NCBI GenBank assembly: GCA_963713925.1
Contig: OY970212.1
Span: 1,212,274 to 1,276,273, forward strand
Reading direction: 5' to 3'
Source: an uncultured bacterium
GTDB taxonomy: Bacteria > Babelota > Babeliae > Babelales > Vermiphilaceae
DNA length: 64,000 nt
Numbering within the stretch: the first letter of the stretch is position 1; the number at the start of each line of letters is the position of its first letter. Made by a program: the position numbers and the translations under genes. A model generated the notes under the pieces. That model did no database searches, was not told where the DNA came from, and worked only from the letters and a program-made list of their open reading frames with translations. Positions 50,392 to 59,229 of this stretch are shown here, in pieces.

Positions 50392-51501
50392 ATGAGACAT
50401 CCATTTTGGATTTTGAATTCAGTGCTCGTTTTTTTGATCGCCCTGTTGGCCGGCTACCTCTATCTGAGCTATCAAACTCCTCTAGAGCGCACAGAAATAG
50501 AAGCTGCGCCGGTTCGTCCTGTATCTAAAAAAAGTGAACAAAAAATAATCATCGAACGTATTTACGAAAATGATATTTTCGGCACAACGCCGCGCAAAGT
50601 GATCAAAGAAGAATCCGCTGCCGAACTCGTACAAAAAATGCCCGAACCACCACGTCCCGTGAAAGAGGAAGCTCCTCCGGAGGCAGAAGTCACTTTTCTT
50701 GATCCATTACCTATAAAATTAAGGGGGATCATGACTTTTGCTCTTGATGACTCGAAAAATAGAGCCGTTATTGAAGCGAGCGCAGGCAATGAGGCATTAT
50801 TCCGCGTTGGCGATATGATTGAAGATGCCCAATTGCTCAGAATTTTTGCAAATAAAATTATCATCATCCGCTCAAACGGTCAGCAAGAAGTTCTCTACCT
50901 GAGAGAAAAAGATGCATTGCTCGATCCAACATACGCAAACGCGCTCGGCTGGAACGATGTCGTGAAACAAATTTCACCTTCTGAGTTTTCAATTAATGTA
51001 TCAGCATTTACGACTCGAGTAACAAATATCAGTCAGCTCCTTGATATGCTTGATATCACGACCATTTACCAAAAAGGTGAAAACTTTGGCTGCCGCATCG
51101 GATCTATTGATGAACATTCTCTGGGTGCTTCGCTTGGGTTTATCAGGGGAGATATTATTACATCAGTCAACGATATTCCCGCTACAAGCACCGCGCAACG
51201 ATTCAAGATCTACAAAACCGTTGTCGGGCTAAACCCTGAAGAAAAAATTGTCATGAAGTTCTTGCGCAGATCACAAGGAAGCTGGAAAGAAATGGAATTC
51301 ACGTACACATTGCAAGAAGTGCGCAAAAAAGCACAAAAACCAAGAACATTTGAACCAACAGAAAACGAAAAGAAACAACGAGAGATCGTTGCAAAAAAAC
51401 ATACCTTAGCTCCAACCATTTCTGATATTCGAAATAGAGAACGTCAGAACATGAAAGAACAAGGGAAAAAACCAACCTCATTAATCACTCCTCAGTCATG
51501 A
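50392..51501 (+). CDS. GspC/PilP-like inner-membrane protein with PDZ domain
   Basis: N-terminal TM helix. HR-like beta block (NRAVIEASAGNEALFRVGDMIEDAQLLRIFANKIIIIRSNGQQEVLYL). PDZ-like block (GASLGFIRGDIITSVNDIP). First gene of the secretin operon. Confidence 0.65.
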   Translation: MRHPFWILNSVLVFLIALLAGYLYLSYQTPLERTEIEAAPVRPVSKKSEQKIIIERIYENDIFGTTPRKVIKEESAAELVQKMPEPPRPVKEEAPPEAEVTFLDPLPIKLRGIMTFALDDSKNRAVIEASAGNEALFRVGDMIEDAQLLRIFANKIIIIRSNGQQEVLYLREKDALLDPTYANALGWNDVVKQISPSEFSINVSAFTTRVTNISQLLDMLDITTIYQKGENFGCRIGSIDEHSLGASLGFIRGDIITSVNDIPATSTAQRFKIYKTVVGLNPEEKIVMKFLRRSQGSWKEMEFTYTLQEVRKKAQKPRTFEPTENEKKQREIVAKKHTLAPTISDIRNRERQNMKEQGKKPTSLITPQS

Positions 51502-51508
51502 GAACAGT

Positions 51509-56275: not shown

Positions 56276-56295
56276 AAAACTAAGGAATTATACTT

Positions 56296-59229
56296 ATGAT
56301 GGGCTGCAGAACTCGCTCGTTAACAACAAATGCACTTATCACCGCGCTGTTCTTTTCTTCTTTTAACTTTGCACAAGATCAACATGCGATCTTGCTTGAA
56401 AAAATCATGTCTCAAGAGAATGGGACTCCAAAAAAGAAGGCTCGCAACAGAAAAAATGCTCATGCAAAAAAAATGAACTTTGTCTTTGAAAATGAAGGCA
56501 TTGTTGATGCGGTCAACACTATCGCTGCCCACAAGGAAGCCAATATTCTTTTGCCGGTCAAAGACGCTGATTTTGAAAAAATTAAAGTTAATTTCGATTC
56601 AGTCACAGACGTGACTGTCGATCAAGCATGGAATTTTTTGCAAATATTGCTTGATCTTTCCGGATATACGATGGTGCAAGAAAATGATCTTTGGAAGATT
56701 ATTAAAAAAGATAAAACAATGAACCGAGAGCCGCTCCCGATTTTTGTGGGAATGACGCCGGAAGATCTTCCTGAATCAGAAGATCGGATTCGCTATGTCT
56801 ATTTCTTCTCAAACTTGAGGGTGGGTGACAACGCTAATAAATCTGACAATGAAATTACCGCACTCATGAACATATTGCTTGCGGATCAAACAAAACTTGA
56901 AGCAAGCCATTATCTTGATCAAACAACAAATTCAATCATCCTTGCAGGCAAATCTGCTGATATTAAAGCAGCAATGCGTGTCATTGTTGAACTCGACAAC
57001 TCTGACATTAAGGAAATGATGGAAGTGCTCCCCCTCAACTATCTATCGGCAGATTTTGTTACTAATTTATTGCAAAGCCTCCAAGAGCCCACGGAAGCTG
57101 AAAAAAAACAAAGTCCTTTGCTGCCAAAGCCAGCCTCAGGAGCAACTTATTTTTCACGCAATGTGAAAATACTTCCTTTCGGGGCAAAAAATGCAATCAT
57201 ATTGCTCGGAAAACAAACAGATATTGGCCGTATTAAAGAATTCACCCAAAAATATCTTGATGTCGCTCTTGATTCGGGTAAATCAGTGTTACATGTGTAT
57301 AAATTGCAATATCTGGATGCCACCCCTTTTGCAGGAGTACTGACAGAGATCGTTAAACGGGATGAATCGCGCAAAACAACCGGACAGTCTGCAGGGAAAA
57401 CATTATCTGATGGAACAGACATTGAAACCTATTTTGAAGAGGTTATAATTAGATCCGATAAACCAACCAAAGATGAAATTACTAAAACTCTGGCACAAGA
57501 ATCTAAGGAGAAACTCTTAACAAATTTGCAACCACCGTCATATAACACAAAAAGTGATGAAACCCTCGGAAGCTATGGCGGCGGCAACAAACTGATAATT
57601 GCATGTCGTGACAGTGATTGGGAAAAAATACGAAAACTTATCGAAGACCTGGATACTCCTTCGCCACAAATTGTAATTGAGGTGTTGATTACTGAAATGC
57701 AAGCATCACAAGTCAAAGAAATTGCATCGCAGTTGCGTAATCCGGGCTGCTTTCCTATGCCGAACAATGTCAACGCACAAACCGGCATGTTTGATACATC
57801 CGGGGCCACAACCACAAACTCTTCAGGTGTGACGACCAGTTTGGCTCAAATTGTTCCTGGATATACTCCCGGAAACACTCCGGTACCTCCTACCCCAACA
57901 ACTTCGGGCAACATTCTTACTACTCTACAAGCAGACTTGCTTGCCAATGCATTGCAGAATCCGGCGTCAACCACACCCAATTTTATCAGCCTTGCCGGAG
58001 CAGCTCCGATTGGATCAACTGTCATCCAAGCATCTGATTCTAACGGTAAGACATGGGGGTTGCTTCAAATTCTTGATACTTTGAGCGCGACAAATATTAT
58101 TTCAAATCCGCATGTGATTGCGACCAATAACACCAAAACGGTCGTCTCCACTATGGACCAGCGCTTGTTGCCTGATACTGCGGCAAACACCGGCGGTCAA
58201 GGTACCACAACAATTATCAATAAATGGGCAAACGCCCCGGTGCAGATAGTAGTGACTCCTCGCATTAGCGGCGAATTTGTAAACCTTGATCTTCAAATTG
58301 ATATCACTCGATTTTTAACAACGGCGACTTCGACAAATGCTACCCAACAAAGCCGCTTGAAACGACAAATTTATACTCAGGCAAATGTTCCCAATGGCGC
58401 TATACTTGCGCTCGGTGGATTGACCAGCAACGAGGATGATGCATTCAACGCTCGTACGCCGATTTTAGGAAGAATTCCTATTCTTGGATATTTTTTCAAA
58501 AGACGCAGCAATACTGAAACTGATTCGGTCGTCGTGGTCTTCATCTGTCCGACCATTATTCAACCGCGCTTGCGCGCCGGTGTAAGTGATTATACCAATG
58601 AACATATTAATTTATCCAAAAAATATATCCGAGACGGAATGGCATTCAGCTCACTGCGCGATCCGATTACTCACTGGTTCTTTGCAAATGAAGGTCTTGA
58701 TCAAATAAGCGAAATTGATGACTTCTTGTTACAAGATGATTCAAGAGCTCAAGAATTTTACCGCTCAGTTGACGAAGGGACAGCTAATCCGGAAGTTCAA
58801 GGACGAAAATTGGCAAAAGCCGAAGCGCTCGGACAAACTCAGGACGTTGGAACAGTTATCGGCTCGCCAAAGCAAAAAATAACAGGAATACGAGAGATTC
58901 AGGAGCATGAAGCGAATATCGACACATTAGTTGATGTTTCCGCCTACGCTCAAAAAGATGAACTTCAGCGTGACGCTACTTCGTTAAAACTTCGTAGCGC
59001 AGGCAGGTCCGTCTCCGACAGCGAGACCGGACCGCGTGACGGGCTGGCCATTGCCCAAGCGCAAAAAAAGCCAGAAGCAATATCTACCGCCGCTCAAAAA
59101 GACGAGCTAAGGCGTGACAGGCCTGCCGCCTCACAAAAAACAGAGGCCGAACCTAAAAAAGAGCGCCCTTTGCTAACGCTCATGGCAGAAATGGAAAATC
59201 CGCTGAAACGTAAATCTAGACTGCAATGA
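56296..59229 (+). CDS. secretin (GspD/PilQ family), copy B, with extended C-terminus
   Basis: N0-like MNFVFENEGIVDAVNTIAAHKEANILLP. Secretin signature AILALGGLTSNEDDAFNARTPILGRIPILGYFFKRRSN...VVVFICPTII. A tail of about 200 aa follows, including a duplicated AQKDEL(Q/R)RD motif. Confidence 0.85.
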   Translation: MMGCRTRSLTTNALITALFFSSFNFAQDQHAILLEKIMSQENGTPKKKARNRKNAHAKKMNFVFENEGIVDAVNTIAAHKEANILLPVKDADFEKIKVNFDSVTDVTVDQAWNFLQILLDLSGYTMVQENDLWKIIKKDKTMNREPLPIFVGMTPEDLPESEDRIRYVYFFSNLRVGDNANKSDNEITALMNILLADQTKLEASHYLDQTTNSIILAGKSADIKAAMRVIVELDNSDIKEMMEVLPLNYLSADFVTNLLQSLQEPTEAEKKQSPLLPKPASGATYFSRNVKILPFGAKNAIILLGKQTDIGRIKEFTQKYLDVALDSGKSVLHVYKLQYLDATPFAGVLTEIVKRDESRKTTGQSAGKTLSDGTDIETYFEEVIIRSDKPTKDEITKTLAQESKEKLLTNLQPPSYNTKSDETLGSYGGGNKLIIACRDSDWEKIRKLIEDLDTPSPQIVIEVLITEMQASQVKEIASQLRNPGCFPMPNNVNAQTGMFDTSGATTTNSSGVTTSLAQIVPGYTPGNTPVPPTPTTSGNILTTLQADLLANALQNPASTTPNFISLAGAAPIGSTVIQASDSNGKTWGLLQILDTLSATNIISNPHVIATNNTKTVVSTMDQRLLPDTAANTGGQGTTTIINKWANAPVQIVVTPRISGEFVNLDLQIDITRFLTTATSTNATQQSRLKRQIYTQANVPNGAILALGGLTSNEDDAFNARTPILGRIPILGYFFKRRSNTETDSVVVVFICPTIIQPRLRAGVSDYTNEHINLSKKYIRDGMAFSSLRDPITHWFFANEGLDQISEIDDFLLQDDSRAQEFYRSVDEGTANPEVQGRKLAKAEALGQTQDVGTVIGSPKQKITGIREIQEHEANIDTLVDVSAYAQKDELQRDATSLKLRSAGRSVSDSETGPRDGLAIAQAQKKPEAISTAAQKDELRRDRPAASQKTEAEPKKERPLLTLMAEMENPLKRKSRLQ

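What the first reader, a model, noticed from the sequence alone, without database searches (positions are those of the whole stretch)
50392..59229. Secretion/pilus operon with two tandem secretins around a GspL/GspM-like pair
The gene order is GspC/PilP-like PDZ protein, secretin A (863 aa), PilM-fold plus TM protein (543 aa, its start overlapping the secretin stop), PilO/GspM-like protein (181 aa), then secretin B (977 aa). Both secretins have an N0-like N-terminus (IEFNFENASLEQLISYVADVF and MNFVFENEGIVDAVNTIAAH). Both have the C-terminal secretin signature (KVPLLADIPLLGWFFKNKS and RTPILGRIPILGYFFKRRS). Elsewhere they are strongly diverged. A has an acidic N-terminal extension and B has a ~200-aa C-terminal tail. 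Canonical T2SS (gspC-M) and T4P (pilMNOPQ) loci encode one secretin, and neither matches this gene order. The ATPase and the one pseudopilin are 10 kb away. No GspF/PilC, major pilin or prepilin peptidase lies in the window. Possible explanations are a hetero-oligomeric OM channel, two channels sharing one inner-membrane platform, or a T2SS/T4P hybrid.
Basis: partly seen in the sequence, partly recalled or inferred. Interest (0 to 1): 0.7.

Follow-up and report, generated by a model that had tools for sequence, protein, structure and literature searches.

The report
Two-secretin type II secretion operon, Dependentiae
This operon for the outer part of a type II protein-secretion machine carries two ancient, both-intact copies of the outer-membrane channel protein; every sampled member of the intracellular phylum Dependentiae (TM6) keeps both, and no studied bacterial secretion system is built this way.

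Summary
Window 50392-59229 (+) is one tightly coupled operon: gspC, secretin A, a PilM-PilN-fusion GspL, a diverged GspM, then secretin B. Both secretins are full-length GspD-class proteins (N0-N1-N2-N3, beta-barrel, C-terminal helices), not PilQ.

The window comes from a Dependentiae (TM6/Babeliales) genome. The same gene order occurs in all 33 related loci that cover both sides.

- The A and B clades are reciprocally monophyletic (200/200 bootstraps) with matching sub-clades.
- Both show dN/dS of about 0.1.
- Each has its own conserved C-terminal tail motif.

So this is an ancient duplication with both copies functional.

A 2016 TM6 comparative-genomics paper already noted "two gspD copies in all genomes, no pilQ" in one sentence. 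I found no description of the operon architecture, the paralogue history or the tail motifs.

The mechanism is unresolved. I favour two separate homo-oligomeric channels served by one GspC/L/M platform (about 0.45), over a single composite two-secretin complex (about 0.25). It is a new variant of a known kind, of moderate to high interest.

The parts
50192..50221 (+). Promoter-like site (TTGACA-18-TATTGT) in the 236-nt gap between moxR and gspC
   Evidence: This is a consensus match only, and the number of such sites in the region equals the shuffle expectation. It is the only sizeable intergenic gap upstream of the operon.
50392..51501 (+). gspC: N-terminal TM helix, HR (secretin-binding) domain at about residues 100-178, PDZ domain at about 225-314
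   Evidence: Pfam T2SSC 3.3e-9 and PDZ_6. NCBIfam GspC_delta 2e-21, below cut-off. The orthologue profile hits solved GspC (7oio, 1.4e-5), OutC HR in 6hcg_e (8.7e-5) and DegP/DegQ PDZ (2e-13).
51509..54100 (+). gspD-A (secretin A, 863 aa): signal peptide, acidic disordered extension 24-121, N0 134-218, N1 233-317, N2 323-403, N3 414-495, secretin barrel 501-769, C-terminal helices 775-848
   Evidence: TIGR02517 GspD 219 bits; PilQ 125. AF2 model. Foldseek best hit PulD 6hcg, 9e-32. Family profile against GspD 197 bits, against PilQ at most 116.
54086..54097 (+). Secretin A extreme C-terminus (GVAS-COOH): family-conserved [G/E]-[V/A]-x-[A/T/V]-COOH
   Evidence: Across 100 orthologues, position -4 is G or E in 87%, -3 is V or A in 68%, and -1 is A, T or V in 77%. 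Its function is inferred only (a candidate ligand for the GspC PDZ or another partner).
54097..55728 (+). gspL-type protein (543 aa): PilM-type actin-like cytoplasmic domain (21-344), TM helix at about 372-395, periplasmic PilN/GspL-like domain
   Evidence: PilM_2 6e-14. The profile hits solved PilM structures (3jc8_M, 1.8e-25) and no solved GspL. Family hits: PilM_2 8/8, T2SSL 8/8 (best 2.3e-7), PilN 4/8. There are 577 cluster representatives at E<=1e-30, and the 150 best listed are nearly all 500-570 aa and matched end to end.
55730..56275 (+). gspM-type protein (181 aa): N-terminal TM helix plus periplasmic domain
   Evidence: The window copy has no family hit. Nine of 18 orthologues hit Pfam T2SSM, best 1.3e-5. 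Conserved position and size in all loci.
56296..59229 (+). gspD-B (secretin B, 977 aa): signal peptide, basic patch, N0 63-137, N1 149-235, N2 241-321, N3 332-452 (with insertions), barrel 458-755 (long S/T/P-rich loop 498-575), C-terminal helices 765-844, disordered tail 845-953, terminal short helix
   Evidence: TIGR02517 GspD 215 bits; PilQ 91. AF2 model. Foldseek best hit PulD 6hcg, 5e-27. Family profile against GspD 202 bits, against PilQ at most 124. hhalign of family A against family B: probability 100%, E=3e-119, 650 aligned columns.
59170..59205 (+). Secretin B tail motif (LLTLMAEMENPL): family-conserved amphipathic 'LK-LL' helix followed by NP[F/L], at the end of the disordered tail
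   Evidence: P969 is nearly invariant. NP[FL] occurs in the last 120 aa in 81% of B against 1% of A, and the extended motif in 67% against 0%. Function is inferred (a partner- or pilotin-binding peptide).
59309..59327 (+). Terminator-like hairpin plus T-run about 80 nt after the secretin B stop
   Evidence: consensus match only.
38889..40595 (+). GspE/PilB-family assembly ATPase with an MshEN-type N-terminal domain (remote part of the same machine, inferred)
   Evidence: TIGR02533 GspE 653 bits (cut-off 630). PilB 626 bits (cut-off 676). Pfam T2SSE plus MshEN.
40741..41394 (+). Pseudopilin with a prepilin leader (GFTLVEL); weak GspH/ComGD similarity. The true start is probably downstream of 40741
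   Evidence: N_methyl. GspH 1.9e-9, below cut-off. It is the only prepilin-type leader in the window.
49154..50155 (+). MoxR-type AAA+ ATPase, always the immediate upstream neighbour (median gap 92 nt). Any role in the system is unknown
   Evidence: The flanking dcd and eno genes are syntenic too, so adjacency alone does not show a functional link.

Best explanation
This is the outer-membrane and assembly-platform operon (gspC-gspD_A-gspL-gspM-gspD_B) of the type II secretion-type machine of a Dependentiae (TM6/Babeliales) bacterium. [quoted passage not shown]

Shown:
- The five genes form one translationally coupled unit.
- Both secretins are complete GspD-class proteins.
- They are paralogues from a duplication older than the sampled Dependentiae radiation.
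- Both are kept under purifying selection in every lineage sampled.
- Each carries its own conserved C-terminal tail motif.

Inferred mechanism:
- GspC, GspL and GspM form one inner-membrane platform. It is driven by the GspE ATPase and by pseudopilins encoded elsewhere.
- The GspC HR domain docks onto the N0 ring of a secretin.
- A and B each assemble into their own homo-oligomeric outer-membrane channel.
- The single platform can engage either channel: one motor, two exits.
- The paralogues have subfunctionalised, for example by substrate class, location or timing. Their different tail peptides would mediate distinct targeting or regulatory contacts, much as the disordered S-domain peptide of PulD binds its pilotin.

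Confidence is split. I put the identity and the 'both functional, ancient paralogues' claim at about 0.95. The two-separate-channels mechanism is at about 0.45.
For: Anatomy:
- ORFs and domains.
- Junctions of +7, -4, +1 and +20 nt with SD-like sequences.
- The secA-gspL 4-nt overlap is conserved in 36 of 40 loci.

GspD class for both secretins:
- NCBIfam GspD 219 and 215 bits against PilQ 125 and 91.
- Four N-domains in both AF2 models.
- Foldseek top hit is PulD for both.
- Profiles align end to end with solved GspD at about 200 bits, against at most 124 for PilQ.

Lineage and conservation:
- 18 genome loci are titled Dependentiae/Babeliales or unnamed MAGs, with 23 more metagenome loci.
- A secretin lies upstream of gspL in 41/41, downstream of gspM in 35/35, and both in 33/33 loci.

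Ancient paralogy and function:
- A|B split in 200/200 bootstraps, with congruent sub-clades.
- Pairwise identities of A and B correlate at r=0.95.
- dN/dS is 0.08-0.17 for both, like gspC, gspL and gspM.
- Both keep the AHL membrane motif and the DP..R.FF motif, and both are constrained across N0-N3 and the barrel.

For separate channels rather than a fixed hetero-ring:
- Family-specific tail motifs: NP[FL] in 81% of B against 1% of A, and [G/E][V/A]x[A/T/V]-COOH in A.
- Sites conserved within each family but different between them cluster in N3 and the barrel, 20 of 26.
- One lineage (L005) has a further intact B-type copy, so copy number is flexible.

For both using the same GspC:
- The first N0 strand is similar in both (IEFNFEN and MNFVFEN; shared F133/F62).
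- After regressing out background divergence, GspC co-varies with A (0.87) and with B (0.77).

Context:
- 44% of Chromulinavorax CDS carry signal peptides (PMC6561590).
Against: There is no direct evidence on oligomeric state, localisation or expression.

Co-transcription with translational coupling, and the strong A-B residual co-variation (0.88), fit a single physical complex equally well.

Only one HR-domain protein (GspC) is encoded for two N0 rings.

The mirror-tree result is confounded. Periplasmic and outer-membrane proteins may share lineage-specific rates, and the distance pairs are not independent.

The flanking housekeeping genes (dcd, moxR, eno) are syntenic too, so gene order at this locus is generally stable. 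Order alone is therefore weaker evidence of functional coupling.

I could not take a genome-wide inventory of gspF, gspG, gspO and pilT.
Confidence: 0.5

Rival explanations
1. One composite machine. A and B co-assemble into a single outer-membrane conduit, either as a hetero-oligomeric ring or as two physically coupled rings on one platform. Both are then obligate subunits of the same channel, as has been proposed for the mitochondrial T2SS, which has two secretin C-domain paralogues (GspD and GspDL).
For: Same operon with conserved translational coupling. Strict co-retention in 33/33 loci in streamlined genomes of about 1-1.4 Mb. Similar selective constraint on both. High residual co-variation between A and B, 0.88. 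Shared core motifs: AHL and DP..R.FF. Only one GspC. A precedent by proposal exists in the miT2SS (PMC10128026).
Against: The paralogues are only 23-30% identical. Divergent conserved sites concentrate in N3 and the barrel, which form ring contacts. Insert and loop lengths differ. Each has its own tail motif. L005 carries an extra B-type copy, which fits poorly with a fixed stoichiometric ring. I know of no bacterial hetero-oligomeric secretin, and I found none.
Confidence: 0.25
2. PilQ substitution (the suggestion of Yeoh et al. 2016). One GspD copy, most plausibly B because it sits after the PilM-type gspL and gspM as pilQ follows pilMNOP, is the exit pore for a type IV pilus-like surface fibre used for host attachment or DNA uptake. 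The other copy serves protein secretion.
For: pilQ is absent from TM6 genomes while T4P-annotated genes are present (PMC4776705; PMC6561590). The GspL cytoplasmic domain matches PilM, not GspL, among solved structures. The ATPase scores nearly as well for PilB (626 bits) as for GspE (653 bits) and has an MshEN N-domain. The gene order L-M-D_B echoes pilM/N-O-(P)-Q.
Against: Both copies are GspD-class with four N-domains and no AMIN domain, and the PilQ models score far lower for both. Both sit in one operon with gspC. There is no PilP-like gene before B, and no major pilin, PilT or PilC in the window. No pili were seen on Babela by EM, according to PMC4776705. The 'T4P genes' annotated in TM6 may simply be these same shared components.
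Confidence: 0.15
3. Not a real two-secretin system. One copy is a redundant or decaying duplicate, or two separate systems were merely juxtaposed in this genome.
For: One relative (L012) has secB split by a frameshift. Gene order at this locus is generally conserved, including unrelated neighbours.
Against: 33/33 loci keep both. Reciprocal monophyly holds in 200/200 bootstraps. pN is far below pS for both. All functional motifs are retained. L012 is a single case in a MAG that may carry assembly errors, and its fragments still show dN/dS of 0.17.
Confidence: 0.02

Closest known systems
Canonical proteobacterial T2SS (Klebsiella Pul, Vibrio Eps, E. coli Gsp), with its outer-membrane complex GspD15-GspC (PDB 6hcg)
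   Same: GspC with TM, HR and PDZ. A GspD with N0-N3, secretin barrel and C-terminal helices. GspL architecture (cytoplasmic actin-like domain, TM, periplasmic domain). GspM. A GspE ATPase that passes the equivalog cut-off. Evidence.
   Different: There are two GspD paralogues in one operon, flanking gspL-gspM. The genes for E, F, G-K and O are not contiguous with it. The GspL cytoplasmic domain is PilM-like in sequence. Both secretins score below the GspD equivalog cut-off (219 and 215 against 351 bits). Each has a long disordered tail with a lineage-specific motif. No pilotin or GspAB was identified.
Type IVa pilus alignment/secretin module PilMNOPQ (Myxococcus, Pseudomonas; PDB 3jc8)
   Same: A PilM-type actin-like domain (profile E=1.8e-25 to M. 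xanthus PilM). PilN-like and PilO/GspM-like periplasmic partners. A secretin encoded immediately after them.
   Different: PilM and PilN are fused. There is no PilP lipoprotein; a PDZ-bearing GspC is present instead. The secretins have four N-domains, no AMIN domains, and score poorly against PilQ models.
Mitochondrial T2SS (miT2SS) of some protists: GspD plus GspDL
   Same: Among the systems I found described, it is the only T2SS-derived one with two secretin paralogues assigned to one machine (PMC10128026).
   Different: The eukaryotic proteins hold only the C-terminal barrel part, and their N-domains are separate proteins (GspDN1-3). Here both paralogues are full-length.
Bacteria with several secretins in separate loci (E. 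coli GspD-alpha and GspD-beta; Pseudomonas XcpQ, HxcQ and XqhA)
   Same: More than one GspD-class secretin in one genome. PMC10329019 treats the two E. coli types. The Pseudomonas cases are from my own knowledge.
   Different: Those secretins belong to separate complete T2SS operons or are orphan genes. They are not conserved phylum-wide and do not share one gspC-L-M operon.
Prior note on TM6 genomes (Yeoh et al. 2016, PMC4776705)
   Same: It states that pilQ is absent and that two gspD copies occur in all seven TM6 genomes analysed, and it asks whether one replaces PilQ.
   Different: It is a one-sentence gene-content remark. The text I read gives no operon architecture, paralogue phylogeny, domain analysis, selection analysis or tail motifs. 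The supplement was not available.

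Membership tests
Type II secretion system (Gsp) | GspD-type secretin: N0 plus three N1-like domains, secretin barrel, C-terminal (S-like) segment | tested here: met
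   Met by both A and B. Pfam domains, AF2 domain layout, Foldseek top hit PulD, end-to-end profile matches to solved GspD.
Type II secretion system (Gsp) | Score at or above the NCBIfam GspD equivalog cut-off (TIGR02517, 351 bits) | tested here: not met
   A scores 219 bits and B 215 bits. GspD is the best-matching family for both, but both are too diverged to pass the curated threshold.
Type II secretion system (Gsp) | GspC: TM anchor, HR domain that binds secretin N0, and a PDZ or coiled-coil domain | tested here: met
   T2SSC passes the Pfam cut-off (37.1 against 27 bits) and PDZ_6 also passes. The profile matches solved GspC/OutC HR and PDZ domains. Binding itself was not tested.
Type II secretion system (Gsp) | GspL: cytoplasmic actin-like domain, TM, periplasmic domain in a single polypeptide | tested here: inconclusive
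   The architecture is met. T2SSL hits occur in 8/8 members but are weak (best 2.3e-7; the window copy scores 13.7 bits against a cut-off of 25.5). By sequence the domain is PilM-type.
Type II secretion system (Gsp) | GspM | tested here: inconclusive
   The window protein has no family hit. Nine of 18 orthologues hit T2SSM, best 1.3e-5. There is no PDB match. Topology and position fit.
Type II secretion system (Gsp) | GspE ATPase | tested here: met
   TIGR02533 scores 653.2 bits against a cut-off of 630.25. The gene lies 10 kb upstream, so its link to this operon is inferred.
Type II secretion system (Gsp) | GspF platform protein, GspG major pseudopilin, GspO prepilin peptidase | not testable with these tools
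The literature reports T2SS components in the TM6 core genome (PMC4776705).
Type II secretion system (Gsp) | One secretin per system (canonical stoichiometry) | tested here: not met
   There are two in the window and in 33/33 related loci, and three in L005.
Type IVa pilus (PilMNOPQ) | PilQ-type secretin (AMIN domains, N0, a single N1, secretin domain; TIGR02515 cut-off 284 bits) | tested here: not met
   PilQ scores 125 bits (A) and 91 bits (B). Both have four N-domains and no AMIN domain.
Type IVa pilus (PilMNOPQ) | Separate PilM, PilN, PilO and a PilP lipoprotein | tested here: not met
   PilM and PilN are fused in one 543-aa protein. The HR-domain protein is a TM-anchored, PDZ-bearing GspC.
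Type IVa pilus (PilMNOPQ) | Major pilin, PilC platform, PilT retraction ATPase | not testable with these tools
   None is in the window. A genome-wide inventory was not possible.
miT2SS-like two-secretin pore | Two secretin paralogues limited to the C-domain, with N-domains on separate polypeptides | tested here: not met
   Both paralogues here are full-length. The miT2SS description comes from PMC10128026.

The most novel reading that the evidence does not exclude
The two secretins are obligate partners in a single machine. They would form either a hetero-oligomeric pore or two coupled pores on one GspC/L/M platform. That would be the first bacterial secretin channel built from two different subunits, and a bacterial counterpart of the GspD/GspDL pair of the mitochondrial T2SS.

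A more remote version, which I put at roughly 3% or less, is that one paralogue is exported and inserts into the host vacuolar membrane as a translocon. That could explain how Sec/T2SS-dependent effectors of these intracellular bacteria reach the host cytosol. Nothing here supports this version beyond its not being excluded.
Probability: 0.25. Interest if true: 0.8.

Novelty: new variant of a known kind. Interest (0 to 1): 0.55.

Why it matters
Every structurally studied secretin-based machine (T2SS, T4P, T3SS, Tad, filamentous phage) uses a pore made of one secretin species. Here a whole phylum of obligate intracellular parasites of protists has kept two full-length GspD paralogues wired into one gspC-L-M operon since before its radiation. 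These bacteria have very small genomes and, in the cultured member Babela, no other secretion system was detected.

That degree of retention implies a non-redundant role for the second channel in host exploitation. It also offers a natural experiment on three questions: how an inner-membrane platform selects or shares outer-membrane pores, how secretins are targeted without known pilotins, and how T2SS and T4P modules interconvert. Several Dependentiae grow in amoebae or flagellates, so cryo-ET and proteomics tests are feasible.

Tried and rejected
1. Rooting the A/B tree with non-Dependentiae secretins failed. Every listed hit from both homologue searches is an A or a B family member. I could show only that A and B are closer to each other than to solved GspD or PilQ, by bit scores. 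I did not obtain a rooted phylogeny.

2. A genome-wide gsp/pil inventory from the supplement of Yeoh et al. was not possible, because the file is not held.

3. I suspected the run of small + strand ORFs at 23.9-27.9 kb to be a pseudopilin cluster. This was rejected: there are no family hits, no prepilin leaders, and the sequences look like a toxin/immunity cassette.

4. The GspM-like profile found nothing meaningful in the PDB.

5. Rfam found nothing in 48-62 kb.

6. I considered reading 'SLGF' in GspC as the PDZ carboxylate-binding GLGF loop. It aligns instead with the 'AGL..GD(I/V)I' segment typical of HtrA-type PDZ domains, so I make no such claim.

7. I considered the secretin B 'NPF' motif as a eukaryotic EH-domain ligand. 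NPL looks about as common as NPF in the tails listed, and secretin C-termini are periplasmic, so I judge this unlikely.

8. Lipoprotein status: a few orthologues have a Cys near the signal peptide, but it is not conserved.

10. Both structure-prediction jobs went on the monomers, so no A/B, GspC-N0 or PDZ-peptide complex could be modelled.

Full report

Yes. The mechanical ORF list gives five co-directional ORFs at exactly the stated positions.

| Coordinates | Length | Assignment |
|---|---|---|
| 50392-51501 | 369 aa | GspC |
| 51509-54100 | 863 aa | secretin A |
| 54097-55728 | 543 aa | GspL-type |
| 55730-56275 | 181 aa | GspM-type |
| 56296-59229 | 977 aa | secretin B |

The gaps between them are +7, -4 (ATGA overlap), +1 and +20 nt, each preceded by a Shine-Dalgarno-like sequence. 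A promoter-like site lies in the 236-nt gap upstream of the first gene, and a terminator-like hairpin follows the last. These two are consensus matches only. Pfam and NCBIfam confirm the domain assignments.

- GspC has T2SSC plus PDZ.
- Both large proteins have N0, Secretin_N and Secretin domains. TIGR02517 (GspD) is the best family for both, at 219 and 215 bits. That is well above PilQ (125 and 91) but below the equivalog cut-off of 351.
- The 543-aa protein is PilM_2.
- The 181-aa protein has no hit of its own.

The ATPase (38889-40595) passes the GspE equivalog cut-off and nearly passes PilB. The neighbouring ORF is a pseudopilin. Scanning the larger remaining ORFs and a six-frame prepilin-leader motif search found no GspF/PilC, peptidase or further pilin. 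The genes between the ATPase and the operon are unrelated: TamB, PLD, an ankyrin protein, photolyase, dCTP deaminase and MoxR.

**2. Where does it come from, and is the arrangement conserved?**

The 543-aa protein has few relatives in the word-indexed database (8 hits at 28-33% identity). Their contigs already showed the same gene order.

A genome scan with the family alignment returned 18 loci. Their records are titled Candidatus Dependentiae, Babeliales or unnamed MAGs. A metagenome scan gave 23 more. In the trees the window nests among the labelled Dependentiae sequences.

I mapped the window's proteins onto all ORFs of these loci. Among 44 loci (three exact duplicates removed, otherwise not de-replicated):

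- a secretin lies immediately upstream of gspL in 41/41;
- a secretin follows gspM in 35/35;
- both are present in 33/33 loci that extend far enough to judge.

The 4-nt overlap between secretin A and gspL is kept in 36 of 40. The flanks (dcd, moxR, eno) are syntenic too.

There are two variants. L005 has a third secretin, which is a B-type duplicate. L012 has secB interrupted by a frameshift in a MAG.

The exhaustive profile search shows the fused GspL-type family is large. There are 577 cluster representatives at E<=1e-30, and the 150 best listed are nearly all 500-570 aa and matched end to end.

**3. What are the parts?**

*Secretins.* AF2 models built on 100-sequence family alignments have mean pLDDT of about 70, with folded domains mostly at 80-95. 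Both proteins get the same layout: signal peptide, N0, three N1-type domains, the double-walled barrel region and C-terminal helices. Foldseek's best hit for both is full-length PulD in the Klebsiella outer-membrane complex (6hcg).

| Comparison | Score |
|---|---|
| Family A profile vs solved GspD | about 197 bits |
| Family B profile vs solved GspD | about 202 bits |
| Either profile vs PilQ | at most 124 bits |
| A HMM vs B family members | about 260-320 bits |
| B HMM vs A family members | about 470-495 bits |
| hhalign, family A vs family B | E=3e-119 over 650 columns |

I read it, from my own knowledge of secretin structures, as the amphipathic helical loop (AHL). Both also keep a shared 'DP..R.FF' motif in the C-terminal helices.

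The differences are as follows.

- A has a disordered acidic N-terminal extension (residues 24-121).
- B has insertions in N3 and a longer S/T/P-rich barrel loop (498-575).
- B has a roughly 110-residue disordered tail.
- Within one genome, A and B are 23-30% identical.

*GspL-type protein.* The family profile hits solved PilM structures (E=1.8e-25) and no solved GspL. At Pfam level all eight members hit PilM_2 and, weakly, T2SSL, and four hit PilN. It is therefore a PilM-PilN fusion, which is the GspL architecture.

*GspM-type protein.* Nine of 18 orthologues hit T2SSM.

*GspC.* The profile matches solved GspC/OutC HR domains and HtrA-type PDZ domains.

**4. Are both copies functional, and how old is the duplication?**

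A neighbour-joining tree of 42 secretins from the loci splits A from B in 200/200 bootstraps. The two halves show matching sub-clades, and the extra L005 copy is sister to L005-B in 200/200. Pairwise identities of A and B across genomes correlate at r=0.95.

For the closest genome pairs, pN is far below pS. dN/dS is 0.08-0.17 for both secretins, the same range as gspC, gspL and gspM. dS is close to saturation, so these ratios are approximate. Conservation is spread over N0-N3 and the barrel in both.

The duplication therefore predates the sampled radiation, and both copies have been maintained by selection.

**5. Signs of subfunctionalisation**

Each family has its own short conserved element at the end of a poorly conserved tail.

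- B: an amphipathic 'LK-LL' helix followed by NP[F/L]. It occurs in 81% of B and 1% of A. P969 is nearly invariant.
- A: a basic run followed by a conserved extreme C-terminus, [G/E]-[V/A]-x-[A/T/V]-COOH.

Sites conserved within each family but different between them lie mostly in N3 and the barrel (20 of 26).

After regressing out background divergence (MoxR plus enolase), GspC, A and B co-vary strongly (0.77-0.88), while GspL and GspM co-vary less (0.38-0.58). This is suggestive only, for two reasons. The distance pairs are not independent, and envelope proteins may simply share rates.

**6. How it most likely works**

*Shown:* one operon, a T2SS-type outer-membrane and platform module, and two functional GspD paralogues.

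*Inferred:*

- GspC/L/M forms one platform, powered by the GspE-type ATPase and by pseudopilins encoded elsewhere.
- GspC-HR docks onto N0. The first N0 strand is similar in A and B (IEFNFEN and MNFVFEN).
- A and B form separate homo-oligomeric pores that the platform can engage alternatively.
- The tail peptides mediate paralogue-specific targeting or regulation. This is by analogy with the disordered S-domain peptide of PulD, which folds onto its pilotin (established knowledge of the Klebsiella Pul system).

I prefer separate pores over a fixed hetero-ring because of the paralogue-specific tails, the divergence concentrated in ring-forming regions, and the flexible copy number (three secretins in L005). 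My confidence in this mechanism is only about 0.45.

The composite-complex alternative (about 0.25) is favoured by co-translation, strict co-retention and A-B co-variation. The miT2SS provides a conceptual precedent (PMC10128026).

The PilQ-replacement idea of Yeoh et al. (about 0.15) gains from the PilM-type GspL and the PilB-like ATPase. It loses because both secretins are equally GspD-like, both share an operon with gspC, and no pili were reported on Babela.

**7. Comparison with what is known, and novelty**

The closest system is the canonical T2SS. The T4aP PilMNOPQ module is second, and this locus mixes features of the two.

Literature searches found no description of a bacterial T2SS operon with two secretins. 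The large TFF-superfamily survey does not mention TM6.

The bare fact 'pilQ absent, two gspD copies in all TM6 genomes' is in Yeoh et al. 2016 (PMC4776705). Deeg et al. 2019 speak of a 'derived pulD channel'. Pagnier et al. [quoted passage not shown]

New here, as far as the held literature shows, are:

- the C-D-L-M-D operon anatomy and its conservation in all 33 loci that could be judged on both sides;
- the ancient reciprocal paralogy;
- equal purifying selection on both copies;
- the full GspD layout of both copies;
- the paralogue-specific tail motifs;
- the three-secretin variant.

I rate it a new variant of a known kind, with interest 0.55.

**8. Limits**

- There are no expression, localisation or stoichiometry data.
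- The tree is unrooted.
- dS is saturated.
- The AF2 models are monomers of moderate confidence.
- There is no genome-wide inventory.
- The loci were not de-replicated beyond removing exact duplicates.

Noticed in passing
window 23937-27870 (+): A low-GC island (GC 0.33 at 26-28 kb) with no family hits. It holds a 625-aa protein with a signal-peptide-like N-terminus and a low-complexity region, followed by small ORFs of 145, 126, 279 and 135 aa. The 126-aa and 135-aa proteins are clear paralogues, sharing '...DVGWYP...DW.NP.Y...LQEAI.IAD..Y'. It resembles a polymorphic-toxin plus immunity-gene cassette.
   Followed up: partly
window 59263-59297 and 59485-59519 (+), secB-eno spacer: A 35-nt direct repeat (identical except at one position, A vs G) occurs only in this 400-nt convergent intergenic spacer. 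By eye, a partial inverted copy lies between the two at about 59395-59435. None is expected by chance. No Rfam family matches.
   Followed up: partly
L005:12180-14624 and L005:14692-17055: One Dependentiae lineage (ENA k141_6933810) carries three secretins. The third is a diverged tandem duplicate of the B type. Both B copies keep the N0 and AHL motifs.
   Followed up: yes
L012:12200-14700: In MAG MFD06092.bin.1.94 the secB orthologue is split into three ORFs. tblastn shows one frameshift near residue 380 and probably one stop. This could be an assembly error or a genuine pseudogene. It is the only such case among the 35 loci that cover secB.
   Followed up: partly
window 49154-50155 (+), and the same position in 24 related loci: A MoxR-type AAA+ ATPase is always the immediate upstream neighbour of gspC (median gap 92 nt). 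The window holds no VWA partner gene. It could be a chaperone for the machine or just conserved synteny, since dcd and eno are syntenic too.
   Followed up: no
window 56400-56470 (SecB residues about 45-59), and SecA orthologues just after the signal peptide: Many orthologues of both secretins carry a short K/R-rich patch between the signal peptide and N0. Examples are KKKARNRKNAHAKK in the window's B, and RRRRRK, RRSDRR or KNRRRSKTRSK in A orthologues. Its function is unknown.
   Followed up: no
window 36821-37948 (-) and 41583-44288 (+): The outer-membrane biogenesis genes BamD and TamB flank the GspE-pseudopilin pair. An ankyrin-repeat protein, typical of Dependentiae effectors, lies at 45358-45825 (-).
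   Followed up: no
window 40741-41394 (+): The prepilin leader (KSGFTLVELMVV) sits at residues 58-70 of the mechanical ORF. The real start codon of the pseudopilin is therefore probably about 50 codons downstream of 40741.
   Followed up: no
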